Sequence record: PZ445489.1
DNA length: 64,000 bases
Strand: one strand, 5' to 3'
Origin: a phage
The translations under genes and the position numbers were made by a program. How positions within the stretch are numbered: position 1 is the first letter of the stretch; each line of letters starts with the position of its first letter. The notes beneath the pieces are model-generated. The model was not told the DNA's origin, ran no database searches, and worked only from the letters and a program-made list of their open reading frames with translations. Positions 7,809 to 60,438 of the stretch are shown here, piece after piece.

Positions 7809-10139
7809 ATGAGCCATCGCATTGAAAAAGTAATTAAACGTGACGGTACTGTAGAAGACTTTGCTCCTGAAAAACTCAATGGTTGGGCAGAGTATGGTTG
7901 CAAAACAGTTGATGTAAGTTGGTCAGCCATTACTATGGCTGCTCAAAAAACTCTACCTAAAGGGGTTGTAGATTCCGACACTCTGATGGACGCATTAATT
8001 AAAGCTGCTGAAAGTCTTATCAAAGATAATCCAGCATACGATGTGCCAGCAAAGGAATTACGTCTTGCGCAAATGCGTAAACGCCTTTATGATTCTTTCG
8101 AACCACCCTCTCTACGCTTCTTCCATGACCATATGGTTAGCGTAGGTGCATGGGAAGACATGAGTGCATGGATTACCGATGAGCAATTTGAAGCTCTGAA
8201 TCAGGTTATAGACCACGATCGTGACCGTCTTTTTACTAGTGGTGGACTGAAGCAGTTCTTTGATAAGTATTCCCGTCGTAACATAGCCACTGGTGAAATT
8301 TACGAAACCCCGCAGTTTGCCTACATGGGTATGGCAATGGCGATGTTATCTCAACCTAACTGGACAATTCTAGATGCAATCGACCTCTACAACGCAATGT
8401 CACTCCACAAAATCAACGTTCCTACGCCGCCACTGGTTGGTCTGCGCTCTAGTGACCGTGGATTTGCTAGTTGCTGCCTCGTGGATTCCACTGACACGTT
8501 GGATTCAATCGACACCGCCGAGCACATCGTCTTCAAAATGGTCGCAGCCAGAGCGGGAATCGGGTATCATCTTGAAAGCCGATCAATTGCTGATCCGGTG
8601 CGAAATGGGGCATTCCCACATTCCGGAAAACTGCCATATTATCGACACATTGACCGCTCAGTAAAGGCCAATACTCAGCAAACTCGTGGTGGTTCTGCCA
8701 CAGTGTCTTATCCATACTTCGACCCTGAAATCATTCAATTGATGCAGGTTAAGCAACAACGTGCTACAGATGAGAATAAAATCGATAAGATGGATTATTC
8801 TCTGAGCTTTAACAATCTTTTGTTAAAACGTTATCTTAAAAACGAGGATATTACGCTAATGTCATACTTCTATGCTCCAGAAGTTCATGAAGCGTTTTAT
8901 AGTGATGACGAGGCTAAATTTGAAGAAATCTACGTGGCAGCGGAGAAACGTGTGGCATCTCTTACAAAGATCGACCACGAAGGAAAAACAGTTCCTGCAG
9001 CTCCTAAAGTCTCTGCAAAAGAAATCCTAGATACTTGGCTACGTATCCGAATGGAAACAGGACGTATGTATGCTCATCACATCGGGGAATCTAATCGTCA
9101 CGGTAACTTCCTTGATCCAATCCGTATGACAAACCTTTGTGTTGAAATTACTCAGCCTACGCGCCCGTTCCATCATATCACAGAACTGTATAAGACAAAA
9201 GAGCAGCTTGATCAAATGAAGCCGGAGGATATTGGTGAAGTATCTCTGTGTAACTTAGGTGGTGTTGTACTGGGGCGCATGGAATCTCTGGCTGAGTGGG
9301 AAAAAACTTGCTACATCCTCCTGAAATTCGTTGATACAATTATTGAAATTCAGGATTATCCGTTCCCAACTATGGAATATACGGCTAAGAAACGTCGTAA
9401 TGTTGGTATTGGCCTAATGAACGCAGCAGGTGCAATGGCAGCAGAAGGTCTGGCTTATGAAGGTATTGAAGCCCGTAACTGGATTCACCGTGAGGCTGAA
9501 AAACTGTCCTACTTCCTGCATAAAGCCTCTGTACGCCTAGCTAAAGAACAGGGTGCATGTGAGTGGTTTGATCGTACTAAACCATCTAAAGGAATTCTGG
9601 TAATCGACACGTACAAGAAAACTGTTGATGAACTGGTATCCGTAGGTCTAGAAATGGATTGGGAGTCTCTGCGTGCAGATATTCTGAAATACGGTATGCG
9701 TAACTCTGTTCTGACTGCTCAGATGCCAGGAGAAAGTTCTTCTGTTCTGTTAGGTGTTACTAATTCTATTGAACCGCCTCGTAAGATTGTATCTATCAAG
9801 GGTAGTGCAGTGAATAAAGTAATTGCAATTGCTCCGGGTGCAACCGATTGGGAAACGTTAATGAGCTATAAACTGGCTTATGATGTAGATCGTATCGAGT
9901 GGATCAAATGGGTAGCAACTATGCAGAAATTCTTCAGTCAGTCTATCAGTACGAATATGTACTATGACTACACCAAGTTTGAGAATGAAATCATTCCTGG
10001 TCCAGTAGTAGTTCGTGATTTCATGACTGCTGTTAAGTATGGGTGGAAGACTTTCTACTACGCAAACTTCAACACCGCTAATGGTGGTGGTGCAGGGGAA
10101 GAATCCGCAGGCTGCGCTTCTGGTGGTTGTACCATCTAA
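7809..10139 (+). CDS. nrdA: ribonucleoside-diphosphate reductase alpha subunit (class Ia)
   Basis: ATP-cone HRIEKVIKRDGT, NLCVEI active-site region, C-terminal CASGGC; start chosen at ATG 7809 after promoter and RBS. Confidence 0.9.
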   Translation: MSHRIEKVIKRDGTVEDFAPEKLNGWAEYGCKTVDVSWSAITMAAQKTLPKGVVDSDTLMDALIKAAESLIKDNPAYDVPAKELRLAQMRKRLYDSFEPPSLRFFHDHMVSVGAWEDMSAWITDEQFEALNQVIDHDRDRLFTSGGLKQFFDKYSRRNIATGEIYETPQFAYMGMAMAMLSQPNWTILDAIDLYNAMSLHKINVPTPPLVGLRSSDRGFASCCLVDSTDTLDSIDTAEHIVFKMVAARAGIGYHLESRSIADPVRNGAFPHSGKLPYYRHIDRSVKANTQQTRGGSATVSYPYFDPEIIQLMQVKQQRATDENKIDKMDYSLSFNNLLLKRYLKNEDITLMSYFYAPEVHEAFYSDDEAKFEEIYVAAEKRVASLTKIDHEGKTVPAAPKVSAKEILDTWLRIRMETGRMYAHHIGESNRHGNFLDPIRMTNLCVEITQPTRPFHHITELYKTKEQLDQMKPEDIGEVSLCNLGGVVLGRMESLAEWEKTCYILLKFVDTIIEIQDYPFPTMEYTAKKRRNVGIGLMNAAGAMAAEGLAYEGIEARNWIHREAEKLSYFLHKASVRLAKEQGACEWFDRTKPSKGILVIDTYKKTVDELVSVGLEMDWESLRADILKYGMRNSVLTAQMPGESSSVLLGVTNSIEPPRKIVSIKGSAVNKVIAIAPGATDWETLMSYKLAYDVDRIEWIKWVATMQKFFSQSISTNMYYDYTKFENEIIPGPVVVRDFMTAVKYGWKTFYYANFNTANGGGAGEESAGCASGGCTI

Positions 10140-10198
10140 TATTAACAAGGGGACATACGTCCCCTTTATTAGACCTTCTATGGCTGTAATTTTAAATT

Positions 10199-48035: not shown

Positions 48036-48655
48036 TGACTTTATATGCACAACAATCTATTCAAGTAGTACCAGAGCATGAACTGAATACATGGGATTAT
48101 AGCTTTAAAGATTTAACTGCTACTGTACAATTCAAATCTATGAAGCTAACCTTTGCACACACTAGTATTAAAGCATGTAAAGATCTTGAAGGTAAGCTCG
48201 AAGATGCTCGCAAGATTTTTGGTACGGCTCGCATCCCGGCGGATAACCTGATTAATGCACTGATCGATGCAGGGTACAAACTTGTGAAGACTGAGGTGAA
48301 CCGCCCCAGTACTCCAGTGACTATTAGAGATCCGTGGCAGTCAGGGACAATCTCAATGCTGAATAACTCCGATAAAAGATTAATGTCGGATATGCACAAT
48401 GTTCCTTGTGGGGGTGTGGTAAGTAGTACGAAGTCATATAAGTTTGGGGAAGATTACGGCCCTTCTGTACAGTTGAAACATACCCAAGAAGCTTTTGAAT
48501 CTGATATGCGAAGCGTAGCACCTGTGGATGCTGGAGTTTCTAGGAGTTCTGTTTGTACTATTCATTTTAATAATCCTAGTAAACATGGAAGTCTAGAAGA
48601 TGCAATTATGGAAGCACTGGGAGCTGTTATTAATGAAGATAAGAGGGGTAATTAA
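48035..48655 (+). CDS. hypothetical protein (206 aa)
   Basis: ORF. Confidence 0.5.
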   Translation: MTLYAQQSIQVVPEHELNTWDYSFKDLTATVQFKSMKLTFAHTSIKACKDLEGKLEDARKIFGTARIPADNLINALIDAGYKLVKTEVNRPSTPVTIRDPWQSGTISMLNNSDKRLMSDMHNVPCGGVVSSTKSYKFGEDYGPSVQLKHTQEAFESDMRSVAPVDAGVSRSSVCTIHFNNPSKHGSLEDAIMEALGAVINEDKRGN

Positions 48656-49790: not shown

Positions 49791-49815
49791 AAAACAACTC
49801 TTGTTTTGAACTCTA

Positions 49816-49911
49816 GGGGCGATGATTATTACACTTAGTATTACGTCTATACGTTGCGACAGCACGAGTATAGATCTAATTACTAAGTCTTCCGTAATAC
49901 TCACGCGCCCC
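49816..49911. repeat. imperfect nested palindrome (about 95 bp)
   Basis: ggggcg..gtattacg..ctatac..gtatag..cgtaatac..cgcccc. Confidence 0.5.
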
Positions 49912-50224
49912 ACGAGGAATCTCACATGAAATGGGGGTATATTTACTTTTAAATAACTAAAAATATTTAAAGGCAATATCTGTGTTCAAGATGATACACC
50001 TGTTGCCGCTCATCTGCTAGGATGGCACAACACTTTCTAGTAGACTCCTAAGTTTCTAGGAATAGTTGAGCACTAACTCTAGAGTTTACATTAAACTTTA
50101 AATCTGTTTCTCTAGCCAACTCAGGCGGTTTTCATTGTTCCTAGAAACTCTAGCAATAGGCGGTTATAGGGAGGGCGGTTATTTCTAGAAGACATTTTTT
50201 GAAAACACATTTCCAGAAATTACT

Positions 50225-50825
50225 GTCGGATTTGCACACTGCATTTCTAGAAATTTATGGTCGGATTTGCACAAACGCCTAAGTTTTTAGGGACACATAA
50301 TCTCCTGAAAATAGCAGCATTATTTCGGGCCGAAGGCCCATGATTGCCTGAGTTTTTAGAGCCACAGAAATTTTCACTTGTCAAGCTATTTTGCCCCGTT
50401 TAGCTAATAAAATTTTACTTTTTCTGCACCTATCTCAAATTAACCCAAATTATCTCACATCTTCCCCAAAATCCCCGCAAATCAGGTGCTCCGCACCAAA
50501 CATGCGCCCCATCCTTCTAGCCTCCCAAATTTCTCTCACTCTCTCATCTTCTCCTCAAACCCACACAATCACACACCCTCCAATCGAAGTCACAAAAATC
50601 TTGTCGGATTCGCACAAATAAACCCATGTCGGATTTGCACATATTCTAGCTAATTCCACAGGATTGATGCGCAGCATCGGATTGCTGGAGTTTTTGGGAA
50701 AATTCATTGTCGGATTTGCACACTATAAAAATTTTTCGGGTCGGATTTGCACACTACCAAAAATTGTCGGATTCGCACATACATGCCCGCACGTAACACC
50801 CGTGGAGCAATGTCGGATTTGCACA
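50225..50825 (+). repeat. eight direct copies of 14-bp box GTCGGATT(T/C)GCACA
   Basis: Copies at 50225, 50260, 50603, 50628, 50709, 50740, 50766, 50812, all same orientation. Confidence 0.8.
50510..50585 (+). other. G-free C/T/A tract on + strand (about 75 nt)
   Basis: cctcccaaatttctctcactctctcatcttctcctcaaacccacacaatcacacaccctc has no G. Confidence 0.7.
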
Positions 50826-50871
50826 AAAGCGCAGGGCAATTGCCCTGCTAGCCTGAATGCGAATGATAATA

Positions 50872-51000
50872 AGAATCATTATCATTTAAAAAGCGAAATG
50901 AGAACTATTCAAAAAGTGAAATGATTCTCATTTAGGAAAGGAAATGATTATCGGTTAGAAAGTGAAATGCGAATGAGAATAATTCTCATTTAAGAATGGA
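50872..51000. promoter_or_regulatory. cluster of palindromic AATGAGAAT-N-ATTCTCATT-type operator-like boxes
   Basis: Palindromes at 50872-50896, 50928-50943, 50982-51000 plus GAAATGA half-site repeats. Confidence 0.55.
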
Positions 51001-51023
51001 AGTGAGAAACACTGTTATTTAAG

Positions 51024-51105
51024 TTATCCACAGACTTATTAACAGCACGATTTGACTTGACAGAATCCTAGCCATTTTGAGGCGTTATTAACAGACTTAT
51101 CCACA
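51024..51105 (+). promoter_or_regulatory. two DnaA-box-like TTATCCACA sites
   Basis: TTATCCACA at 51024-51032 and 51097-51105. Confidence 0.5.
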
Positions 51106-51129
51106 GCTTATCCTACTGTATAAATATAC
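51094..51129. repeat. 36-bp inverted repeat, left copy (partner 54637-54672)
   Basis: gacttatccacagcttatcctactgtataaatatac; 34 of 36 match reverse complement of right copy. Confidence 0.7.
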
Positions 51130-51327
51130 AGTATTCCTACGTAGTGAATAATTCTAATATACCGCTAAAACGTCCTAGATCGCATTCTAACGCGTTTAAT
51201 TTTGGTGGGGATACTAAAACAAGGGCAAAATTGGAGGAGGCTTAAAAATTAGTTAGCCCGCTAACGATCACACAAGTCGACACGTAACACCCTAATCATT
51301 AGCAGGCTAACCATCGCGGGCGCGCTC

Positions 51328-51348
51328 AAATGAGAATGATTCTCATTT
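51328..51348. promoter_or_regulatory. palindromic operator-like box AAATGAGAATGATTCTCATTT
   Basis: 10-bp arms, same family as the 50.9-kb boxes; just beyond 3' end of leftward operon. Confidence 0.5.
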
Positions 51349-51389
51349 GAGAATTGGGGGCACTCCCTGGTAGTTGCGCCCCGTTATTA

Positions 51390-51584
51390 TTAATCCGGTA
51401 ATTGATGCGTGATCTTCTCCTCTTCCCCATAGGAATCGACCAAATGCTGATAATAACCATCGGCATCATAAATAACGCTATCATATTCCCCCCGCTCGAC
51501 CGCTTGCCGGTTTTCCGGCGTATCGGGCACGTAAAAAACATCAACCATTGTACTGATTTTGGTTACAACAATTTTATTGCTCAT
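51390..51584 (-). CDS. hypothetical pre-early protein (64 aa)
   Basis: ORF, last gene of leftward operon; ATGA overlap with upstream gene. Confidence 0.45.
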   Translation of the reverse strand: MSNKIVVTKISTMVDVFYVPDTPENRQAVERGEYDSVIYDADGYYQHLVDSYGEEEKITHQLPD

Positions 51585-51925
51585 TGCGCCACCTTTCGAA
51601 ACGCTGTTTCAATACTATCCGCAGTGGATTGAATATACGCGCCTTTCATTACTAGGCGCTCGGTGCATACCTTGCGGAAAATATTAATAAAATCATCTTC
51701 ATTTTCTGCAATTAATGCTTCACCCATAACCTGAACGTCACAAGATGCAAAGGTCAAAAATTGAAACGCTAGTTCACGGGCAACGACCGCATTAATCTTA
51801 TAATGCGCTTTGCCCTCATAAATATTAATAACGCCCTTATAAGCTGGTGAAAGCTGGTTTAAATAGTTTGCTAACAATGCCGGGCGGCAATTAGCAACAA
51901 AGCGGTTGCCCTCATAAATAACCAT
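51581..51925 (-). CDS. hypothetical pre-early protein (114 aa)
   Basis: ATG after GGGAGG RBS (track start 51940 is upstream in-frame). Confidence 0.5.
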   Translation of the reverse strand: MVIYEGNRFVANCRPALLANYLNQLSPAYKGVINIYEGKAHYKINAVVARELAFQFLTFASCDVQVMGEALIAENEDDFINIFRKVCTERLVMKGAYIQSTADSIETAFRKVAQ

Positions 51926-51926
51926 T

Positions 51927-52052
51927 TTATAACCTCCCAATCAGATAGCCAGATAAAAGCATAAAAACCCCCAGTAAAAGGGGATCATTCTTAAATAGGG
52001 TGGCGGTAAAACCGCCAACCATTGCAAGGATAATAATAATAACGCTTTTCAT
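51927..52052 (-). CDS. small hydrophobic membrane peptide (41 aa)
   Basis: Single TM helix; stop overlaps next start; below ORF-track cutoff. Confidence 0.3.
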   Translation of the reverse strand: MKSVIIIILAMVGGFTATLFKNDPLLLGVFMLLSGYLIGRL

Positions 52053-52261
52053 AGTACCCCACGAAACGCAGCGTAAAAGGTGGCAAAGTGTTTAACCGTT
52101 TCAGCGATCACGTTGCCGCGCTTGTCAAATTTCTTTTCTGTAACACGAAAGGCATTCTTATTACGTGCTACATATTCGATTTTACAATCTTCACGCTCGA
52201 ACGTGTTAACATCCACCAGCTTAAAGCCTTTCGAACGGGCAAGGGAAACATTGCGGATCAT
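52049..52261 (-). CDS. hypothetical pre-early protein (70 aa)
   Basis: ATG after AAGGAG RBS. Confidence 0.5.
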   Translation of the reverse strand: MIRNVSLARSKGFKLVDVNTFEREDCKIEYVARNKNAFRVTEKKFDKRGNVIAETVKHFATFYAAFRGVL

Positions 52262-52263
52262 TT

Positions 52264-52419
52264 TTATTCTCCTTTACTAGTCATGCAGCCCAGCAGATAA
52301 GAAAATGCAGCGATACCTGCGCCAATAATAACCGCGTGAACGCCGAAAGCTATTGCAAACAACGATAAAATAGCGCCCAAGATACCCGCTAAAATAGCTC
52401 GAAAAATAACCATTTTCAT
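52264..52419 (-). CDS. small hydrophobic membrane peptide (51 aa)
   Basis: Single TM helix; below ORF-track cutoff. Confidence 0.3.
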   Translation of the reverse strand: MKMVIFRAILAGILGAILSLFAIAFGVHAVIIGAGIAAFSYLLGCMTSKGE

Positions 52420-52460
52420 TCCCCCTAGTTAGTGGGGCGAAAATAACGCCCCGTTATTAA

Positions 52461-52769
52461 TTACATTAAAACAATTTTAGCCGCTTGTTTTTTGGTGCAA
52501 TGTTCTGCTTTCAGGGTATCCAGCAAAAAGCCCGCCGTTTGCTGATCGATTTGATCATTATCATAAAGCGCCTGAATGGTAGTGTATGTTTTAGCAATGC
52601 CATATTCTTGCACCATTTCGTGAATAATAACGCGGTTAGATACCCAGCCTTGAGCGGTGAACAGATGACTAGCAGAAGAATAAGCAACCATTTTAAGCCT
52701 CCAATTTTTGGGAAAATTTTCAACCGTCCTCAAACGGTGTAAAGGCATTATAACAAAAAAGGCCACCAT
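52461..52769 (-). CDS. hypothetical pre-early protein (102 aa)
   Basis: ORF. Confidence 0.5.
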   Translation of the reverse strand: MVAFFVIMPLHRLRTVENFPKNWRLKMVAYSSASHLFTAQGWVSNRVIIHEMVQEYGIAKTYTTIQALYDNDQIDQQTAGFLLDTLKAEHCTKKQAAKIVLM

Positions 52770-52796
52770 AAAAGGCGACCTTTACAAAACTTTACA

Positions 52797-53291
52797 TTAG
52801 ACTACTTGTAGGGATTCAATATTGAAACATCGTTTCAATTCGTCATGCAAAACAGCATATTCATCCCATCGGGTACTATCAGGAATATAAACAAGCTGTT
52901 TTAATCGATTTGCGTATATTACCGCTTTGTTACCAACTATCTCGACGCCACCATATTTAATAATTAATCTCATGACGGAATTAATAGGATCGCCGCCGTT
53001 TACATATGTGCCGGATTTACTTAATTGATAATGATAAAGGCTTGCATATACGTTTTCATTTTCATACCATTCGCCAGTTTCTTCGTCTTCGTAACCATCG
53101 CTACCAAAACGAGAAGCATTATCAATAGCCATTTCCTGAGCGAAAGCGTCCAGATTACAGCCAGCTGGAACAAAATGTTCCTCCGTCCAACCTTCCCCGC
53201 AATAGCCAGTATGACAATCGACCAAAATGATCATATCATGTTTTGCCATGCTCACTTCTCCCAGTGAGAAGCCATATTTTTCATCAGCCAT
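52797..53291 (-). CDS. hypothetical pre-early protein (164 aa)
   Basis: ORF with GGAGG RBS. Confidence 0.55.
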   Translation of the reverse strand: MADEKYGFSLGEVSMAKHDMIILVDCHTGYCGEGWTEEHFVPAGCNLDAFAQEMAIDNASRFGSDGYEDEETGEWYENENVYASLYHYQLSKSGTYVNGGDPINSVMRLIIKYGGVEIVGNKAVIYANRLKQLVYIPDSTRWDEYAVLHDELKRCFNIESLQVV

Positions 53292-53356
53292 TTATTAGCC
53301 TCCTATTAATTAACAAGGGAATACTAAAGCGGGGTAACAATCCCCGCTTAGTATTA

Positions 53357-54367
53357 TTACTCGCTTTCGGTGTTAGTAGTAAAAGTAGAAATATCAATAC
53401 CTTTTACCATTTCATCAATCATTTCAGCGATGTTAAAACTTTGCACCATTTCTAACATAGCCGCTTCCATAGCCGCGCCTGCTACCGCTTTCGCTTTCTG
53501 GTTACTCGGGGCATACTGGTCAACCGCTACACTCAGCAGGTTGGCAATCACTACCCGACCAATCGGTGTATCAATATAACCTTTGATCATAAACGGTGCT
53601 TTTTTAGCCGCTACTTTCGTGATTTGAGTCAATGCAATTTTACCTGCTTCCAGTTTTGCAGCATTTACAACAGCGGATTTATTAGCGGCAACAATATTAG
53701 CGATCTTGGTCATGGTGTTTTTTCCTTTGTTTTCAGTAGTTTGAATTTTAACGCTTTGAGTGTTAGAATTTACAGCATGGTTTTCTACGCTGTCAATAAT
53801 CTGATCTTCATCTTTCCAGAAAGAAAAACCAGCGCTTTCTATATCCCCATCATAAATATATGGGTATAGCTCCCGTGGTAACAAAAAATTACCGTCGCCA
53901 TCAAAAGCCATTATACCGGTATATTGAGATCCGTCGTTATCCGGCTTATGCCATCCAGCCGGTAAATACTTCCAGATAACATCTAAAAATCCCTCAATAC
54001 TAGAAAGTCCGTTTATCAGATCAAGCCCAATAAGCTCAAAACCATTTATATTAAATGATTGACGGCCTGAATTGCTATGATACGCAACAATATTATTACC
54101 CTGTGCAACAATAAAATCGGTATCCGGCCCCGCTCCCCTGCCAGTAAAGATATGGCAATCACGGTTATATAAAACTAGCGTTGCCCCGTACTTATATAAT
54201 GGCAAAAAACCTTCCATATCATAGGCGTCATAGTCATCAAAAAAGTTTTGATGAATAGTTTCAGCCTTGTTAATAAAATGTTTAATGCTGGTTGACTTGC
54301 TACCGTCCAGCAGGTTACGCAGCGCACCTTTTAAGACGGTAGCATTATCAGGTTTATACAGCCTCAT
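53357..54367 (-). CDS. hypothetical pre-early protein (336 aa)
   Basis: First and largest gene of leftward operon; RBS GGAGG. Confidence 0.55.
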   Translation of the reverse strand: MRLYKPDNATVLKGALRNLLDGSKSTSIKHFINKAETIHQNFFDDYDAYDMEGFLPLYKYGATLVLYNRDCHIFTGRGAGPDTDFIVAQGNNIVAYHSNSGRQSFNINGFELIGLDLINGLSSIEGFLDVIWKYLPAGWHKPDNDGSQYTGIMAFDGDGNFLLPRELYPYIYDGDIESAGFSFWKDEDQIIDSVENHAVNSNTQSVKIQTTENKGKNTMTKIANIVAANKSAVVNAAKLEAGKIALTQITKVAAKKAPFMIKGYIDTPIGRVVIANLLSVAVDQYAPSNQKAKAVAGAAMEAAMLEMVQSFNIAEMIDEMVKGIDISTFTTNTESE

Positions 54368-54636
54368 TTGTTCGGCCTCCCTCGTTAATCGGTGAGTGAA
54401 TGATATAGATATTTTCTTTCTAGGGGCAAATATTATTTTACCTTTTTATTTTCCTTGCCTAGCGCCTAGTTTTATGCTAACCGCGCAGCGGTGCAATAAA
54501 GAGCAAAACACGGCGAAGCCCCCAGGGCGACGGGTGAAGGCTTTACTTTAATATTACCCCACCGCATTTAGCTCGTTAGAAAGCGTTTTAGGCCGCTTAA
54601 AATTGATTGCAGTTGTTAACACTACCTTTTTACCTT

Positions 54637-54672
54637 GTATATTTATACAGTAGGATAACATGTGGATAAGTC
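54637..54672. repeat. 36-bp inverted repeat, right copy (partner 51094-51129)
   Basis: gtatatttatacagtaggataacatgtggataagtc. Confidence 0.7.
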
Positions 54673-54742
54673 TGTGGATAAGCCCTTATATCGCCGCCTA
54701 TTGTGTCAAATCATTTTGTGCTGTGGATAACGTTGTGGATAA
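54661..54742 (-). promoter_or_regulatory. cluster of four DnaA-box-like sites
   Basis: TGTGGATAA on + strand at 54661, 54673, 54722, 54734 (TTATCCACA on minus). Confidence 0.55.
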
Positions 54743-55025
54743 CTTAAATGATAGTGGTTCTCACTTAGGCCGATAGTTTCTTATAGTTATTATTTCTATT
54801 GGTTACGATTTCTTATAATTATTATTTCTCATTAATTTATATGTATATTATATATCATGAAATAGTTAGTTGGCTAATGAGATTTTCCGTGATTAATAGT
54901 CTGCTAATAATTTAAGCCGTTACAATCCACCAGCACGATTATCATCCTAGCAATTATAAGCCTGCTATTCTCCCAATACACACTAACAAACAAAAGTCAA
55001 TTAATTTATTTCATAAAATAAGTAG

Positions 55026-55058
55026 TTATCCACTGGAAAATAAAAGTCAAGTGGATAA
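55026..55058. promoter_or_regulatory. inverted pair of DnaA-box-like sites
   Basis: agttatccact and agtggataact, 11-bp arms 14 nt apart. Confidence 0.5.
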
Positions 55059-55459
55059 CTAGGAAAATTTCATTTTTGCTTTTTGGGGATAAGTTATCAA
55101 CAAGGCTAGAATGCGCCTAAAACGCCCTAGAACGCGATGAAAGTTTTAGCCATGCCATTGCATTGCCTACCCTCGTTTATCGCTGCCACGAGCTTTTTAA
55201 GTTTTGTCAATACCCCCAAAGCAAATATAGATGAAAAAATTACTTGCCAACCTGCTGGGTTTTATGGTATTCGCGCGCCCGTTTCTTTTAATTTTAGTGC
55301 GGCGCGCCCAGGTCGCCGCACGCCGTCCGGTTAATCGTGTCTTTACGTTTCTTTACAAAAATAAGGTTGCGCCATTTTTGGTATTTGCTATTATTTACCA
55401 CGTAGGGCGGCAATGACGAACTACACGGCGGGAAGTTTACCGCCGCGCTCTTTAAAAAT

Positions 55460-55483
55460 TGGGTACATCTTAAAGCCTATCGG
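55460..55483. repeat. 24-bp perfect inverted repeat, left arm
   Basis: tgggtacatcttaaagcctatcgg; exact reverse complement at 55729-55752. Confidence 0.8.
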
Positions 55484-55516
55484 CGGTAAACTTATTCATT
55501 ATAAGGAATCGACGAT

Positions 55517-55720
55517 ATGAAACAAACTTTATTGATCACTGGTAAACCTAGCAAGGCACTGGACAGCAAAACAAAAAATTTGTTGACAGTAGCGCAAAGA
55601 TCGGTAAAATATCGATTTAAGCAGTACAAGAAAGGCCGCCAGCAAGGTCTGGAAATGATCTGGCGTAATATTATGATTGACTTAAAAGAAAATCATAAAA
55701 AACTGCAAAAAATTGTTTGA
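55517..55720 (+). CDS. small basic protein (67 aa) bracketed by 24-bp inverted repeat
   Basis: ATG with weak purine-rich RBS (GGAATCGACGAT upstream); Lys/Arg-rich. Confidence 0.45.
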   Translation: MKQTLLITGKPSKALDSKTKNLLTVAQRSVKYRFKQYKKGRQQGLEMIWRNIMIDLKENHKKLQKIV

Positions 55721-55728
55721 CACCCTAG

Positions 55729-55752
55729 CCGATAGGCTTTAAGATGTACCCA
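55729..55752. repeat. 24-bp perfect inverted repeat, right arm
   Basis: ccgataggctttaagatgtaccca. Confidence 0.8.
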
Positions 55753-55947
55753 GTTCGATAAGAGCGATAACTTGATAAAATTTGACGGTCGGCACTTACC
55801 ATAATGTGCCCCGCCCCCTAACTGGGATATAGCGGCCTGCGTGGAGTTCTTTAAATTGATTATATTGGCGAGCGGATTGTTGCTTATTACCTGCTAGAAA
55901 GTAGCAGGTAATGCGGAACAATCCCCTAAATAACTGGAGTTTATACT

Positions 55948-56199
55948 ATGCAAAACGTTATCATTACGCCGAAAGTTGGTCAATCCGTTTTTATTCCTTT
56001 CGTTACTAAAACGGATGAATTAACCGGAAAGGCCGAACGCATTAAAGGCGCGGCGCTTATGCCGTTCGATACAATCGACGCGGTATACGCTGAAACGGAA
56101 CGGAGTAACAACGGCAAAACCGTTTTTAGCGTTCGCGTTAAATCCGGCGACGTTGTAAAGGTTGTCCAGCGTAACGAAAAATGGGAAGCTGTAGCGTAA
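55948..56199 (+). CDS. hypothetical pre-early protein (83 aa)
   Basis: ATG after GGAG RBS. Confidence 0.5.
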   Translation: MQNVIITPKVGQSVFIPFVTKTDELTGKAERIKGAALMPFDTIDAVYAETERSNNGKTVFSVRVKSGDVVKVVQRNEKWEAVA

Positions 56200-56300
56200 T
56201 ATAGTGTTAACTTTATATTCCTCTGAAATATGGGGAATATAATGATTAACATTAAGTTAATCATTAAATCCCTTAAATTAAACTAACAGGAGCTACAATC

Positions 56301-56708
56301 ATGACTAACGTTAAAACCGCAAAATTCTCATGGAATGAAGAAAACACCCAAAAAGCTGTTACCATGTACCAGCAGTTAATTAATGAAAACGGTTTAGATT
56401 TCGCAAATAGCGACGGCCTGAAAGAGATTGCAAAAGCAGTTGGCGCGGCCTCCCCCGTGTCCGTTCGCTCAAAATTGACCAGCGCGAAAGCGTATCAGAA
56501 AAGCGATAAGCCGCGCAAAGTTGGCGGCGGTAGCTCAATCCGCAAAGCGCATTATGTGCGCGTTATTGCAAAACACGCTATCGATTCCGGCATTATCAAA
56601 GACGCCGACGATCTGGCATCACTGGAAAGCGCAAAACTGGAAACGCTGGACGCCGTGGCGCAACTGTTAGGCGTTGCCGATGAAGTGAAACAAGCCGCAG
56701 GCGAATAA
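56301..56708 (+). CDS. A2: pre-early protein, A2-like by size and position
   Basis: 135 aa, AGGAG RBS, directly upstream of A1-like gene; assignment by synteny and size only. Confidence 0.4.
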   Translation: MTNVKTAKFSWNEENTQKAVTMYQQLINENGLDFANSDGLKEIAKAVGAASPVSVRSKLTSAKAYQKSDKPRKVGGGSSIRKAHYVRVIAKHAIDSGIIKDADDLASLESAKLETLDAVAQLLGVADEVKQAAGE

Positions 56709-56765
56709 ATTTAATTAGTGGGGAATATTCCCCACTATAATTTCCCTTTGACTGGAGTTATTAAA

Positions 56766-56963
56766 ATGATCTTTTACCCTACTGAATCCTTAATTCTAGG
56801 CTTATTTATTATGGCGGCCTCATTACTATTCGCTTATTTTCAAAATGATTTAGATTCATATTATTTTAAACGTAAATCTAAGTTAGCAAAGCGTTTAGGT
56901 CTGATTTGTTTTATTGCCGCCGTTGTTTGTGGTGTTAGTTCTAGCCTTATGCCTTTAAATTAA
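56766..56963 (+). CDS. small membrane protein (65 aa)
   Basis: ATG after GGAG RBS; two hydrophobic segments (track start 56718 is upstream). Confidence 0.45.
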   Translation: MIFYPTESLILGLFIMAASLLFAYFQNDLDSYYFKRKSKLAKRLGLICFIAAVVCGVSSSLMPLN

Positions 56964-57060
56964 TGTTGCAAATTATAACGCCTCAAATAATAGGCGTTAT
57001 ATTTGGCAATATTTGCCAATAACAAACGTTTTTTAATCCCTTTAATGGAGTTTTATTACT

Positions 57061-58725
57061 ATGATTATTTCCGCAGAAAAACAAACCGTTATCCTGAAAA
57101 TGGCCGCTGACTTTAATTTCTACGGTAAACGTCTGCGCGCTACTAAACTGGAGGTCTGCGACGATATATCAAAAGCGGTTTACGATACTCCAAAACATTC
57201 CACCGCTATTTGTGATTGGCTGGAAGCAAATAAACCAGCGAAACCGAAAGCGGCGAAAGTAGCAAAAGCCATTAAAAACGATGAGCGCCCAGAAGCGGCG
57301 GGGATTGTTTCTAGCACGGTGGAAAGCTGGGAAGTAAAACAAGGCAAACGCTTTATTATTACATCGATTCAGAATAATACGTTCCCGCATAAAAACTTTT
57401 TAGCCTCACTGGAGCAATTTGCTAAATATATCGGCGCTGATTTGCTGGTTAGCAAGTATATTTATAATAAAAACGGATTCCAAAATGGCGAGGGCGCGGA
57501 TGGAATAAAATATGATTCCGCGTTCGATAAATATATTTGCAGCAAAAACGTGTTTTTGAATAATCGCCGTTTTGCTTTCATGGCTGAAATTAATGTTTTG
57601 CCCACCGCAGATTATCCGCTTTCTGGATTCGCTGAAACTGCAACCGCGCTTAATCTGGAAGGTCTGGCAATTGGTCACGCTAAAATCACCGCCGAAAGCG
57701 TGCCAGCTTTAAAAGGTGAAGTAGTGCGCCGCATGTATTCAACTGGCACGGCAACGCTTAAAAATTACATCCAGCAGAAAGCAGGACAGAAAGCGGAAGC
57801 ACTGCATAACTTCGGTGCGCTGATTGTTGAGTTCGACGAAGACGGTGAGTTTTTTGTTCGCCAGCTTGAAACAATGGACGAAAGCGGGGTGTTTTATGAT
57901 CTGAATGTTTGCGCTACTCCCGCCGGATGCTATGAAACATCGGGGCATGTTTTAGGCTTACAATACGGCGATATTCACGCAGAAAAATTAGATGAAGAGT
58001 GCGCCGCCGCGTCATGGGCTGGCGAAAATAGCTTGCTTGATATTCTTAAACCAAAATATCAGTTTATCCATGACGTTCACGACTTTACATCACGCAACCA
58101 TCACAACCGCGCTTCGGGTGTATTCCTAGCAAAACAATACGCCGCCGGACGTGATAAAGTTCTGGATGATCTTATCGATACCGGTCGCGTGCTGGAATCA
58201 ATGGAACGTGATTTCTCGCAAACAATCATTGTTGAATCTAATCACGATCTGGCGCTATCCCGTTGGCTGGATGATCGTAATGCTAACATTAAAGACGACC
58301 CCGCAAACGCGGAACTATATCACCGCCTTAATGCCGCGATTTATGGCGCTATTGCAGAAAAAGACGATACTTTCAACGTGCTAGATTATGCGCTGCGTAA
58401 GGTTGCAGGTTGCGAGTTTAACGCCATTTTCCTAACGACTGACCAATCATTTAAAATTGCAGGCATTGAATGCGGCGTACACGGTCACAATGGCATAAAC
58501 GGCAGCCGTGGCAATCCGAAACAGTTTAAGAAATTGGGCAAATTAAACACGGGGCACACTCATACCGCCAGCATTTACGGCGGGGTATATACCGCTGGCG
58601 TGGCTGGTAGTCTGGACATGGGTTACAACGTTGGCGCGTCAAGCTGGACACAAACGCATTTAATTACCTATGCAAATGGTCAGCGTACTTTGATCGACTT
58701 TAAGAACGGTAAATTTTTTGCGTAA
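57061..58725 (+). CDS. A1: pre-early protein A1-like with calcineurin-like phosphoesterase motifs
   Basis: 554 aa; GDIHAE, ESNHD and GHTHTAS resemble Mre11/SbcD-type metallophosphoesterase motifs; size matches T5 A1 as I recall it. Confidence 0.55.
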   Translation: MIISAEKQTVILKMAADFNFYGKRLRATKLEVCDDISKAVYDTPKHSTAICDWLEANKPAKPKAAKVAKAIKNDERPEAAGIVSSTVESWEVKQGKRFIITSIQNNTFPHKNFLASLEQFAKYIGADLLVSKYIYNKNGFQNGEGADGIKYDSAFDKYICSKNVFLNNRRFAFMAEINVLPTADYPLSGFAETATALNLEGLAIGHAKITAESVPALKGEVVRRMYSTGTATLKNYIQQKAGQKAEALHNFGALIVEFDEDGEFFVRQLETMDESGVFYDLNVCATPAGCYETSGHVLGLQYGDIHAEKLDEECAAASWAGENSLLDILKPKYQFIHDVHDFTSRNHHNRASGVFLAKQYAAGRDKVLDDLIDTGRVLESMERDFSQTIIVESNHDLALSRWLDDRNANIKDDPANAELYHRLNAAIYGAIAEKDDTFNVLDYALRKVAGCEFNAIFLTTDQSFKIAGIECGVHGHNGINGSRGNPKQFKKLGKLNTGHTHTASIYGGVYTAGVAGSLDMGYNVGASSWTQTHLITYANGQRTLIDFKNGKFFA

Positions 58726-58781
58726 ATAATTAATACCCTAGCGGCTTGAAATATAGCCGCTATTATAGGAGCTAAATTAGA

Positions 58782-59039
58782 ATGAAAGTTACATTACCCA
58801 AAACGCTGGACGAAAAAGCATTTATTTCACCGGATGAAATGGAATCCGATAAAGTTTACAGCTTCGGGCCTATCCTAGCCGCCAAAACTAATACGGATGG
58901 GATTATTACGGTCGATTATCGTGATAATGATATTATCCCTTTTGACGATGATGACGCTTTTTATGAGTGGCTAAGCGATAATAATTTACCCGTAAATGGT
59001 GAATTAACGCCGTATCAAATGCAGATTATTATCAAGTAA
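58782..59039 (+). CDS. hypothetical pre-early protein (85 aa)
   Basis: ATG after AGGAG RBS. Confidence 0.5.
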   Translation: MKVTLPKTLDEKAFISPDEMESDKVYSFGPILAAKTNTDGIITVDYRDNDIIPFDDDDAFYEWLSDNNLPVNGELTPYQMQIIIK

Positions 59040-59079
59040 ATTAAATACCCTTTATTAAATTAATTGGAGTTTTATAAAT

Positions 59080-59472
59080 ATGAAAAAGCAAAATATCCCA
59101 TTCGATCGCGCTCAATCTTCCATTGTTCTGGTTTATTCTAATGGTGAACGTTACCACGTCGAGGCGGGGCACGTTATTGATGAGCTATTGGACTTTAACG
59201 ACGCTTTGCAGGTTACTACCTTTGCCTATACGCAAGGTAAACTAACTAGCCATATTAAAGCAAAAGGTGTTTATGTTGACACTGTGAAACAAGAAACGAT
59301 TATCATCGACGCCGTAAAATCCGGCCTAGCCTTTGCAGTTGTCGCGCCTTGCCCCGCTTGCCTCGATGATCAATTGACCAGCGCAAAGGTATATACCTGC
59401 GCGGGCATTCGTTCCGGTGTATCTGGTGAAGATATTAGTTTTATTGCTGATGCGTTGGCGTATGGTCTTTAA
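59080..59472 (+). CDS. hypothetical pre-early protein (130 aa)
   Basis: ATG after GGAG RBS. Confidence 0.5.
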   Translation: MKKQNIPFDRAQSSIVLVYSNGERYHVEAGHVIDELLDFNDALQVTTFAYTQGKLTSHIKAKGVYVDTVKQETIIIDAVKSGLAFAVVAPCPACLDDQLTSAKVYTCAGIRSGVSGEDISFIADALAYGL

Positions 59473-59552
59473 TAGTTAATTTATTATTACCCGCTTATAA
59501 ATAGCGGGTAATGCTGAATTAATCTAATCCCTTAAATGGAGAACGTAACAAA

Positions 59553-60287
59553 ATGAATCAAGTTAAAACGAATATTACCCGTAATTTCCCGCATATTTCC
59601 CGCGTCATGATTTGGGATCTGGACGGAACTATCATTAATTCTTTCCATCGCGTAGCGCCTTGCTTTGATAGCGAGGGCAATTTAGATTTAAATAAGTATA
59701 AAAATGAAGCATGTAAACATGATTTAATAATGCAAGATACACTATTGCCGCTTGTTACATATATGCGCCAGTGCATGAATGATGTTAGTACGTTAAACAT
59801 TATTTGCACCGCTCGACTGATGAGCAAGTCGGACTATTATTATTTGCGCAAACAAGGATTGCGAGGGCGTGGGGATAGTAATATCCGTGTATTTTCCCGC
59901 GATACACTACACAAATATTTTGAGGCTGATAAAGTTAGCGAGATATACCACAGCAAAGACGCTATTTATAAAAGCCATTACTTTGAGTTATTTAAACAAT
60001 TATATCCGAACGCTGATTTCACGATGATTGATGATCATAAAGGCGTGCTATCAGCGGCGGCGTCATACGGATTTAAAACGCTGGACGCGCAAGCCGTTAA
60101 CGATATTCTATCGATTGGGGTTACATTGATAGGTGAAACCTTTATCGATGAATCTCTTGAGGATGATAATGATTATCAGTTCCTAGCCGACCGCCTGCAA
60201 TTATGTTGGGAAGGTATGACCGAAGAAGAACGCGCAGAATATAGTTGCAGCCCGCAACAATATATTGAGAAATTAAAAGTTGCGTAA
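59553..60287 (+). CDS. dmp: HAD-family 5'-deoxyribonucleotidase-like protein (Dmp-like)
   Basis: 244 aa; HAD motif I IWDLDGTIIN; size and position match T5 dmp as I recall it. Confidence 0.55.
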   Translation: MNQVKTNITRNFPHISRVMIWDLDGTIINSFHRVAPCFDSEGNLDLNKYKNEACKHDLIMQDTLLPLVTYMRQCMNDVSTLNIICTARLMSKSDYYYLRKQGLRGRGDSNIRVFSRDTLHKYFEADKVSEIYHSKDAIYKSHYFELFKQLYPNADFTMIDDHKGVLSAAASYGFKTLDAQAVNDILSIGVTLIGETFIDESLEDDNDYQFLADRLQLCWEGMTEEERAEYSCSPQQYIEKLKVA

Positions 60288-60299
60288 TAATTAAAGTTG

Positions 60300-60345
60300 A
60301 AATAGTCACGGTGTGTAATGATAACATGCCGTGACTATTAGCCTG
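60300..60345 (+). terminator. hairpin after dmp-like gene
   Basis: agtcacggtgtgtaatgataacatgccgtgact stem-loop; no clear T-run. Confidence 0.35.
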
Positions 60346-60438
60346 CTAAGTACCGGGCGGTAATGAGACTCATTCTCATCTGGAGGGCCACTGGACACAC
60401 CTCCATGTGTAATCTTATGAAATTTGGCAAAAAGTCAA

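What the first reader, a model, noticed from the sequence alone, without database searches (positions are those of the whole stretch)
50872..51348. Family of palindromic operator-like boxes AAATGAGAAT-N-ATTCTCATTT
Four palindromes with 9-10-bp arms and related GAAATGA half-sites occur in 130 bp (50872-51000), and again at 51328-51348 just beyond the 3' end of the leftward operon. The periodic spacing and symmetry look like dimeric repressor binding sites.
Basis: seen in the sequence. Interest (0 to 1): 0.55.

Follow-up and report, generated by a model that had tools for sequence, protein, structure and literature searches.

The report
Fur boxes in T5 injection-stop region
The palindromes are real, conserved parts of the long-known but unexplained "injection stop" region of T5-like phages, and their sequence is practically the same as the binding site of the host iron regulator Fur, so a specific host protein can now be tested for a role at the point where T5 DNA entry pauses.

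Summary
The window is a T5-like phage. Positions 50217-51351 are the reverse complement of T5's injection stop signal (iss, "Repeat Region 3"), whose palindromes (palE/G/H, DRC repeats) have been named since 1987 with no known function.

There are two perfect palindromes (50972-50990; 51325-51351), one composite (50862-50886), one truncated copy and several decayed units.

The palindromes match the E. coli Fur box:
- A matrix built from 20 experimentally verified K-12 Fur sites scores them 25.7-26.7 bits (native sites 11-28). About 0.001 such hits are expected per 64 kb.
- All 11 hits of 15 bits or more in the window lie in the 10-kb terminal repeat.
- A matrix built from phage DNA alone recovers the validated Fur sites in 47 kb of E. 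coli DNA.
- Overlapping sites sit 6 nt apart, as in Fur operators.
- The cluster recurs in Escherichia, Salmonella, Erwinia, Pectobacterium, Vibrio and Aeromonas phages, next to DnaA boxes and a consensus LexA box.
- No promoter overlaps the boxes.

Best reading: host Fur binding sites. Fur binding is inferred from sequence, and their function is unknown. The main rival is binding by the phage A2 protein. I found no published link between T5 and Fur.

The parts
50217..50827 (.). Eight DRD-type iterons with core GTCGGATT(T/C)GCACA, on the left flank of the palindrome cluster. The two leftmost copies lie outside the terminal repeat.
   Evidence: family D1; corresponds to the nine DRD copies of T5 Repeat Region 3
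50828..50848 (+). Homologue of the T5 major single-strand interruption (AAAA|GCGC, between 50828 and 50829), followed by the GC-rich hairpin GCAGGGCAATTGCCCTGC (palI/J type) at 50831-50848.
   Evidence: T5 annotation and sequence; hairpin found
50862..50886 (.). Composite Fur-like box made of two overlapping 19-mers 6 nt apart: 50862-50880 (20.5 bits) and 50868-50886 (25.7 bits). Positions 50865-50883 match 17 of 19 bases of the classical consensus GATAATGATAATCATTATC.
50897..50955 (.). Three decayed repeat units at 50897, 50914 and 50937 (8.4-9.4 bits). They are strong sites (17-24 bits) in close relatives.
50966..50990 (.). Fur-like box AATGAGAATAATTCTCATT at 50972-50990 (26.4 bits). It matches 18 of 19 bases of the gel-shift-verified E. 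coli gpmA site. A weak overlapping site lies 6 nt to the left (50966, 9.1 bits).
51001..51019 (.). Weak Fur-like unit (9.1 bits) next to the DnaA-box repeat. Its inverted partner at 54747-54765 scores 19.4 bits.
51023..51107 (.). IRC'-spacer-IRD' module: two pairs of DnaA boxes (TTATCCACA at 51024 and 51097, each 3 nt from a TTATTAACA).
   Evidence: described for T5-like phages
51114..51133 (.). palD-type palindrome TACTGTATAAATATACAGTA, one mismatch from the 20-nt E. coli LexA (SOS) box consensus.
   Evidence: the only such match in 64 kb; 0 expected
51325..51351 (.). Perfect palindrome with 13-nt arms, starting 39 nt downstream of the last gene of the leftward pre-early operon. The Fur-like 19-mer 51329-51347 scores 26.7 bits.
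   Evidence: (I19); present in most relatives but not in T5
54636..54765 (.). Mirror copy of the module in Repeat Region 2: LexA-like TTGTATATTTATACAG, four TTATCCACA DnaA boxes (54661-54742), and a Fur-like box at 54747-54765 (19.4 bits).
60162..60180 (.). Fur-like site GATGATAATGATTATCAGT (20.5 bits) inside the 3' end of the dmp coding sequence. It is conserved in nearly all T5-like loci.
60356..60397 (.). GGGCGGTAATGAGACTCATTCTCATC. The Fur-like palindrome 60362-60380 (18.6 bits) overlaps a conserved GGCGGTWA..AGAC motif and ends 17 nt from the inferred left genome end (60397).

Best explanation
The boxes are high-affinity binding sites for the host iron-responsive repressor Fur. Fur binds as a dimer, or as two dimers on overlapping sites, when loaded with Fe2+. 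The boxes lie in the non-coding injection stop signal region at the right end of the terminal repeat of a T5-like phage.

Inferred mechanism: this DNA is the last part of the first-step-transfer segment to reach the cytoplasm. As it arrives, the abundant Fur-Fe2+ occupies the 3-7 strong sites and spreads between them, because the units are 29/35 nt apart and carry 6-nt overlaps. Together with DnaA on the adjacent DnaA boxes and LexA on the neighbouring SOS box, Fur would build a host-protein complex on the phage DNA at the boundary between first- and second-step transfer. Smaller copies of the module lie at the mirror repeat (54636-54765) and near the entering genome end.

The most likely consequences are a physical barrier (to DNA movement, or to RNA polymerase converging on the region from both flanking operons) or protection of the DNA, rather than classical promoter repression.

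Shown here: the sequence identity with Fur sites, the enrichment in the terminal repeat and the conservation across phages. Inferred: that Fur actually binds, and every functional consequence.
For: 1. A 19-nt matrix was built from 20 experimentally verified K-12 Fur sites, using coordinates from Chen et al. 2007. It scores 51329 at 26.7 bits, 50972 at 26.4 and 50868 at 25.7. The native sites score 11-28. About 0.0012 hits of 25 bits or more are expected per 64 kb.

2. Site 50972-50990 differs by one base from the gel-shifted gpmA site. Relatives carry the exact gpmA sequence and the perfect consensus AATGATAATSATTATCATT at 30 bits.

3. All 11 hits of 15 bits or more lie in the terminal repeat (50359-60397), and none in the other 54 kb. 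BF23 shows the same pattern.

4. Reciprocal test: a matrix derived only from phage DNA (66 sites) was scanned over 47,165 bp of E. coli DNA. Every hit of 15 bits or more is a validated Fur site or lies in the same footprinted promoter. Eighteen of 20 validated sites score 15 bits or more, and the two matrices correlate at r = 0.95.

5. Offsets between neighbouring hits are almost only 6, 29 and 35 nt, plus nine pairs at 17, 18, 23 or 36. A 6-nt overlap is the signature of Fur clusters.

6. In an unbiased search for 19-nt palindromes, this is the only recurrent family.

7. The cluster is kept at the same place in Markadamsvirinae, My1, Erwinia KEY, Vibrio PG07 (A1 protein only 32% identical) and Aeromonas AhSzw-1, although the surrounding DNA has diverged.

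8. The neighbouring elements are also consensus sites for host proteins: DnaA boxes and a LexA box.

9. In T5 itself the sites (9552-9715) bracket the published estimate of the first-step shear point, 9618.
Against: - No binding experiment exists. Everything rests on sequence.
- The boxes overlap no promoter, whereas 83% of E. coli Fur clusters do. A regulatory role in the usual sense is therefore not evident.
- The cluster is absent from Vibrio phages Chester and D411 and is degenerate in Proteus phage 2. T5 lacks the 51329-type site and the site near the genome end. Several units have decayed in this phage. The boxes are thus not indispensable for the family.
- The phage motif is slightly biased relative to host sites: G is about as common as T at position 6, and the centre base is mostly C or G.
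- Several lower-scoring hits (52035, 52402, 55947) coincide with ORF start codons and may be coding coincidences.
- How a cytoplasmic protein bound to DNA that has already entered would stop further entry is not obvious.
Confidence: 0.6

Rival explanations
1. The palindromes are recognition sites for a phage-encoded pre-early DNA-binding protein, most plausibly A2 (window 56301..56708). A2 is an essential DNA-binding protein needed for second-step transfer. It would bind them to release, cut or pull in the paused DNA. The resemblance to Fur boxes would be coincidental, or would reflect competition with Fur.
For: - A2 is essential, binds DNA and has no known target.
- The model of A2 has an N-terminal three-helix, HTH-like domain.
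- The boxes occur only in phages that carry A2. They are absent from A1-bearing loci without A2.
- The boxes lie at the place where transfer pauses.
Against: - The loci without A2 and without boxes are probably not T5-like phages: the closest cultured A1-only relatives found infect Flavobacterium, Caulobacter, Shewanella and similar hosts. The co-occurrence therefore mostly tracks phylogeny.
- The large D411 group of Vibrio phages, and phage Chester, have A2 with the putative recognition helix conserved (SVRSKL in D411, AVRSKL in Chester). Yet they have no palindrome cluster and no other recurrent palindrome.
- An unrelated protein would have to match Fur's preferences across all 19 positions, including the 6-nt overlapping arrangement.
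- A2 has no Pfam family or solved relative that would suggest such a specificity.
Confidence: 0.2
2. The palindromes act as DNA structures (cruciforms or hairpins), not as protein sites. They would form a mechanical obstacle in the tail or channel, or a signal for nicking or packaging at the end of the terminal repeat.
For: - The region is rich in palindromes of several kinds and lies next to the major nick and the repeat boundary.
- The palindromes have long been suggested as part of the stop signal.
Against: - A structural role would need symmetry only. Yet all recurrent palindromes share one sequence, and its asymmetric variants keep Fur-matrix scores of 17-25 bits.
- AT-rich 9-nt arms with a 1-nt spacer extrude poorly.
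- Complete ejection occurs in vitro into FhuA proteoliposomes, according to the literature summarised. This argues against a purely DNA-intrinsic block.
Confidence: 0.08
3. The boxes, especially 51325-51351, act at the RNA level as 3' hairpins or terminators for the converging pre-early and early transcripts.
For: - The minus-strand RNA of 51290-51395 folds with the palindrome as a 12-bp hairpin (z = -3.8).
- The site starts 39 nt after the last ORF of the leftward operon.
Against: - No U tract follows the hairpin and no Rfam family matches.
- T5 has an ordinary terminator there instead.
- This reading does not explain the cluster at 50862-50990, the 6-nt overlaps or the match to Fur sites.
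Confidence: 0.04

Closest known systems
E. coli Fur operators (for example gpmA, ryhB, fecI, entC; the 19-nt 'iron box', 7-1-7 / 9-1-9 model)
   Same: Sequence: 16-18 of 19 bases are identical to individual verified sites, and the information scores fall in the same range. The sites share the dyad symmetry, the overlapping sites 6 nt apart and the clustering.
   Different: The boxes do not overlap any recognisable promoter. They lie in a virulent phage's terminal repeat, repeated every 29/35 nt. They show a mild preference for G at position 6 and C/G at the centre. Binding has not been tested.
T5 injection stop signal / Repeat Region 3 palindromes palE, palG, palH and DRC repeats (Heusterspreute 1987; Wang 2005; Davison 2015, 2020)
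   Same: They are the same elements by homology and by order: DRD iterons, palI/J, DRC/pal cluster, IRC'-spacer-IRD' DnaA boxes, palD.
   Different: The literature names them but assigns no binder. Davison proposes DnaA boxes as the stop and a palindrome as a possible A1/A2 cleavage site. The papers I could read or search do not mention Fur.
Fur site next to cos of lambdoid phages (the nohA/nohB sites of prophages Qin and DLP12; identical sequence in lambda)
   Same: It is a strong Fur box close to a phage genome end. GATGATAATCATTATCACT lies 36 nt before cosN in Qin and 34 nt from the right end of lambda. The Qin site was gel-shifted by Fur. The T5-like box 60362-60380 ends 17 nt from the left end.
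   Different: It is a single site, not a cluster, and the phage family and packaging mechanism are different. Whether proximity to the end matters is unknown.
Phages that co-opt a host repressor (for example LexA on the SOS boxes of Bacillus phage GIL01)
   Same: A host global regulator would bind consensus boxes in phage DNA (one search lists the GIL01 work). The T5-like region also carries a consensus LexA box.
   Different: GIL01 is temperate and its boxes overlap a promoter that controls lysogeny. Here the phage is virulent and no promoter is involved.

Membership tests
Fur box (binding site of E. coli-type Fur) | Score under a matrix of experimentally verified sites at or above that of the weakest verified site | tested here: met
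   The three best boxes score 25.7-26.7 bits, and verified sites score 11.4-28.1 (leave-one-out 8-27.6). The phage-only matrix recovers the verified sites.
Fur box (binding site of E. coli-type Fur) | Inverted repeat of the 7-1-7 type, TGATAATnATTATCA | tested here: met
   TGAGAATnATTCTCA is perfect at 50974 and 51331. The G variant of the half-site also occurs in the verified oppA and fecI sites. T variants occur in relatives.
Fur box (binding site of E. coli-type Fur) | Clusters of overlapping sites offset by 6 (or 3) nt | tested here: met
   The window has the pairs 50862/50868 and 50966/50972. Relatives give 34 distinct pairs at offset 6 and none at offsets 1-5 or 7-16.
Fur box (binding site of E. 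coli-type Fur) | Overlap with a sigma-70 promoter (operator function; true for 83% of E. coli clusters) | tested here: not met
   Promoter-like matches are at chance level (5 against 4.6 expected) and weak at the boxes. The strong pre-early promoters at 55583 and 55717 carry no box.
Fur box (binding site of E. coli-type Fur) | Physical binding by metal-loaded Fur, and an iron- or fur-dependent phenotype | not testable with these tools
   This needs EMSA or footprinting, a Fur titration assay, ChIP, and infections of fur mutants.
T5 injection stop signal region (Repeat Region 3) | Homology and conserved order of repeats at the right end of the terminal repeat | tested here: met
   194 phage records cover at least 80% of the 1.4-kb query, and the best matches are about 91-94% identical over its full length. 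The T5 record annotates iss at 9140-10149. The element order matches Davison's description.
Operators of a phage-encoded repressor (A2 as cognate protein) | The boxes and the cognate protein are present or absent together across lineages | tested here: inconclusive
   The boxes are found only in phages with A2. However, D411 and Chester have A2 with a conserved helix and no cluster.
Intrinsic (rho-independent) terminator | GC-rich stem followed by a U tract | tested here: not met
   The stems are AT-rich and no U tract follows.
Known structured RNA family | Match to an Rfam covariance model | tested here: not met
   No match with E-value up to 1 in 49800-51700.

The most novel reading that the evidence does not exclude
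T5-like phages build their injection stop signal out of binding sites for three abundant host proteins: Fur, DnaA and LexA. The pause between first- and second-step DNA transfer, or the survival of the first-step DNA while A1 destroys host DNA, would then depend on these host factors and so on the cell's iron and SOS state. The essential A2 protein would act by displacing or overriding this host-protein complex. A Fur box close to the DNA end that enters first (17 nt in T5-like phages, 34 nt in lambda) would be a more general device for protecting the end.
Probability: 0.2. Interest if true: 0.85.

Novelty: new member of a known kind. Interest (0 to 1): 0.62.

Why it matters
The way T5 stops and restarts DNA injection has been an open question since the 1960s. 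The stop signal region was sequenced in 1987, and its palindromes have stayed unexplained. The stop needs no new protein synthesis. It does not occur when DNA is ejected into receptor-bearing liposomes, which points to a host factor.

Showing that the palindromes are near-consensus Fur boxes, flanked by DnaA boxes and a LexA box, names specific host proteins that are easy to test. It predicts that two-step transfer or early gene expression depends on iron or on Fur. It would also be an unusual use of a host metal regulator by a virulent phage, away from any promoter.

It also suggests rechecking a published result. Overexpression of iron-uptake genes protects E. coli from T5, and this was attributed only to repression of the receptor gene.

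Tried and rejected
- Classical operator reading: promoter scans around the boxes and in the divergent pre-early control region found nothing above chance at the boxes.
- RNA element or terminator: the palindrome forms a hairpin but no U tract follows, and Rfam has no match.
- A2 as a recognisable DNA-binding family: there is no Pfam hit and no solved sequence relative. The single-sequence AlphaFold model has pLDDT 75. Foldseek gives only non-significant Myb, homeodomain and transposase-HTH matches.
- Distant A1-bearing loci as a test of conservation: 26 metagenomic loci (426 kb) have chance-level Fur scores and no palindrome family. They also lack A2 and are probably not T5-like, so they do not separate the hypotheses.
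- A different recurrent palindrome in A2-bearing phages that lack the boxes (D411, Chester, Proteus phage 2): none was found.
- Link to FhuA use: rejected, because BF23, which uses BtuB, has the same cluster.
- Literature searches for T5 with Fur, or with LexA: nothing relevant. Davison's 2015 review could not be retrieved.
- I first placed the nick homologue at 50827/50828. Recounting gives 50828/50829.

Full report
**What the region is**

The 1.4 kb around the finding matches more than 450 phage records. The best matches are about 91-94% identical over the whole query, and the listed best hits are T5-like phages of Escherichia, Salmonella and Citrobacter.

Annotation of a close relative places the pre-early genes in the window: A2 at 56301..56708, A1 at 57061..58725 and dmp at 59553..60287. 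By homology with the T5 ends, the terminal repeat spans window 50359-60397. The assembly runs across the collapsed repeat junction at 60397/60398.

[quoted passage not shown] Davison calls it Repeat Region 3. It contains palC, palD, the IRD'-spacer-IRC' module with DnaA boxes, DRC repeats, palE/H/G, palI/J and nine DRD repeats.

The same order is visible in the window:
- DRD iterons, 50217-50827.
- Homologue of the major T5 nick, 50828|50829.
- A GC-rich hairpin, 50831-50848.
- The palindrome cluster, 50862-51019.
- Two DnaA-box pairs, 51023-51107.
- A palD-type palindrome, 51114-51133.
- A further perfect palindrome, 51325-51351, starting 39 nt beyond the last gene of the leftward pre-early operon.

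A 2020 preprint and a 2026 preprint both still describe them as unexplained repeats and palindromes.

**Check of the observation**

Two palindromes have the stated form, AATGAGAAT-N-ATTCTCATT. One is at 50972-50990 with 9-nt arms. The other is at 51325-51351 with 13-nt arms.

A third, at 50862-50886, is a composite variant. A fourth, at 50919-50933, is a truncated copy. Four more units are decayed.

The spacing is not regular in this phage. In relatives where more units are intact, neighbouring sites are almost always 6, 29 or 35 nt apart.

**Identity of the motif**

The composite box contains GATAATAAGAATCATTATC. That matches 17 of 19 bases of the classical E. coli Fur consensus, where 0.04 matches with up to three mismatches are expected in the window.

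To test this properly I took the coordinates of footprinted or gel-shifted Fur sites from Chen et al. 2007. I fetched those regions of E. coli K-12 and built a symmetrised 19-nt matrix from 20 sites.
- The native sites score 11-28 bits.
- The window's three best hits are 51329 (26.7 bits), 50972 (26.4) and 50868 (25.7). They rank with the strongest sites of the E. coli genome.
- Site 50972-50990 differs by one base from the verified gpmA site.
- The exact probability of 25 bits or more is 1.9e-8 per position.
- All 11 hits of 15 bits or more lie inside the 10-kb terminal repeat, and none in the remaining 54 kb. About 0.2 are expected there.

**Reciprocal and unbiased tests**

A search for near-perfect 19-nt palindromes of any sequence, in the terminal repeats of eight diverse phages, found 53 distinct ones. 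The only family that recurs is the Fur-like one.

I then built a matrix from phage DNA alone. It was seeded with the two perfect palindromes of the window and iterated on the eight phages, giving 66 sites. This matrix was scanned over 47 kb of E. coli DNA.
- Every hit of 15 bits or more was a validated Fur site or lay in the same footprinted promoter.
- Eighteen of the 20 validated sites scored 15 bits or more.
- The two matrices correlate at r = 0.95.

The residual differences are small. In the phage motif, G is about as common as T at position 6, and C/G is preferred at the centre.

The 6-nt offset of overlapping sites (34 distinct pairs; none at offsets 1-5 or 7-16) is the arrangement Chen et al. 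describe for Fur clusters. An unrelated dimeric repressor would not be expected to show it.

**Conservation**

All 40 loci of close T5 relatives that cover the region carry 3-7 sites of 15 bits or more at the same place. These include perfect consensus sites of 30 bits.

The cluster is also present in more distant phages:
- Pectobacterium phage My1 and a 106-kb relative (L053) whose A1 is 68% identical.
- Erwinia phage KEY, with ten sites.
- Vibrio phage PG07, whose A1 protein is only 32% identical.
- Aeromonas phage AhSzw-1.

In PG07 the whole architecture is retained: iterons, Fur-like cluster, DnaA boxes, a CTGT-N8-ACAG box, two Fur-like sites after the leftward operon, one site in the divergent control region and one near the genome end. 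Only about 70 nt of its DNA is still alignable to the window.

BF23, which uses BtuB rather than FhuA, has the same cluster. The boxes are therefore not tied to the Fur-regulated receptor.

The cluster is degenerate in Proteus phage 2 and absent from Vibrio phages Chester and D411. Twenty-six A1-bearing metagenomic loci without A2 score at chance level, with 8 hits of 15 bits or more in 426 kb.

In T5 itself the sites lie at 9552-9570, 9656-9674 and 9691-9715. They bracket Davison's estimate of the first-step shear point (9618) and sit just left of the major nick at 9748/9749.

**Context**

The neighbours of the boxes are also consensus sites for host proteins.
- Six of the window's seven perfect DnaA boxes lie in the repeat.
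- Positions 51114-51133 are one mismatch from the 20-nt LexA box consensus. It is the only such match in 64 kb.
- The module LexA-like box, DnaA pair, spacer, DnaA pair, Fur-like box occurs twice in inverted orientation, at about 51001-51133 and 54636-54765.

No promoter signal above chance overlaps the boxes. The two strong pre-early promoters (55583, 55717) carry none. The flanking operons converge on the region. Classical promoter repression is therefore not supported.

**Best explanation and rivals**

I conclude that these are binding sites for host Fur. The sequence evidence is about as strong as sequence evidence can be, but binding itself is inferred. What Fur would do there is open. 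The options I consider are:
- a nucleoprotein barrier, together with DnaA and LexA, at the transfer boundary;
- a roadblock for converging transcription;
- protection of the first-step DNA or of its entering end.

The mild preference for GAGAAT over GATAAT would weaken accidental -10 elements. That fits a role away from promoters, but it is speculation.

The main rival is A2, which is essential, binds DNA and has no known target. Its model shows a three-helix, HTH-like N-terminal domain with no informative relatives.

Two points count against A2. Its putative recognition helix (SVRSKL) is essentially unchanged, with at most one conservative substitution, across all seven lineages aligned. These include D411 and Chester, which have no palindrome cluster. 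A2 would also have to mimic Fur's specificity over 19 positions.

Purely structural or RNA-level roles explain neither the sequence constraint nor the 6-nt overlaps.

**Novelty**

The palindromes are already described. Their identity with Fur boxes, and of palD with a LexA box, is not mentioned in the papers I could read or search. Older subscription papers (Heusterspreute 1987, Wang 2005, Davison 2015) could not be checked.

One published screen found that overexpression of feoB or ydiE protects E. coli BL21 from T5 and the T5-like phage CEV2. The authors attributed this to Fur repression of fhuA. A direct effect of Fur on the phage DNA is an untested alternative.

Noticed in passing
window 51114-51133 (also 54636-54655): TACTGTATAAATATACAGTA is one mismatch from the E. 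coli LexA (SOS) box consensus, and it is the only such match in the window. A CTGT-N8-ACAG box sits at the same place, next to the DnaA boxes, in T5, BF23 (two copies), Vibrio phages PG07 and Chester, Aeromonas AhSzw-1 and Proteus phage 2. It is conserved more widely than the Fur-like boxes. I found no report linking it to LexA.
   Followed up: partly
window 60356-60397 and 50124-50182: GGGCGGTAA..AGACT lies about 25-40 nt from the inferred left genome end. It is conserved in every lineage examined, including D411, T5 and Proteus phage 2. Two or three GGCGGTTAT repeats lie just outside the right boundary of the terminal repeat in this window and in T5; the same repeats occur on that side in My1, KEY and AhSzw-1, where the boundary was not mapped. 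This could be a signal for the terminase or the repeat boundary, or a target for A2. It overlaps the left half of the Fur-like site near the end, so that site's Fur score may be partly coincidental.
   Followed up: partly
L090 (lambda 48450-48468); L008 (Qin prophage, reverse strand 291-309): The gel-shift-verified 'nohA' Fur site of E. coli K-12 lies 36 nt upstream of cosN of prophage Qin. The identical sequence is in phage lambda, 34 nt from the right end, which from my own knowledge is the end that enters the cell first. This parallels the Fur-like box 17 nt from the entering end of T5-like genomes.
   Followed up: partly
window 50217-50827: The eight DRD iterons have the core ATTTGCACA, one mismatch from the relaxed DnaA box TTWTNCACA. 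The iterons of Vibrio, Aeromonas and Proteus relatives have different sequences.
   Followed up: no
window 52035-52053, 52402-52420, 55947-55965: Three Fur-matrix hits of 15-18 bits coincide with the start codons of small ORFs (ATGAAAAnnGTTATT, encoding M-K/Q-x-V-I). They may be coding coincidences rather than sites.
   Followed up: no
window 60162-60180: A 20.5-bit Fur-like site (GATGATAATGATTATCAGT) lies inside the 3' end of the dmp coding sequence. It is kept in nearly all T5-like loci (20.1-24.6 bits), and Proteus phage 2 has a comparable site in dmp.
   Followed up: partly
window 60397/60398: The window runs straight from the left genome end into sequence that in T5 directly precedes the right terminal repeat. 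The source assembly therefore has the terminal repeat collapsed and circularly permuted.
   Followed up: partly
L089 (Vibrio phage D411) 5700-6400 and 14900-15400: This large group of oyster Vibrio phages has A1 and A2 but lacks the DnaA, LexA and Fur box module altogether. Whether these phages inject in two steps is unknown, and they would be a natural comparison.
   Followed up: no
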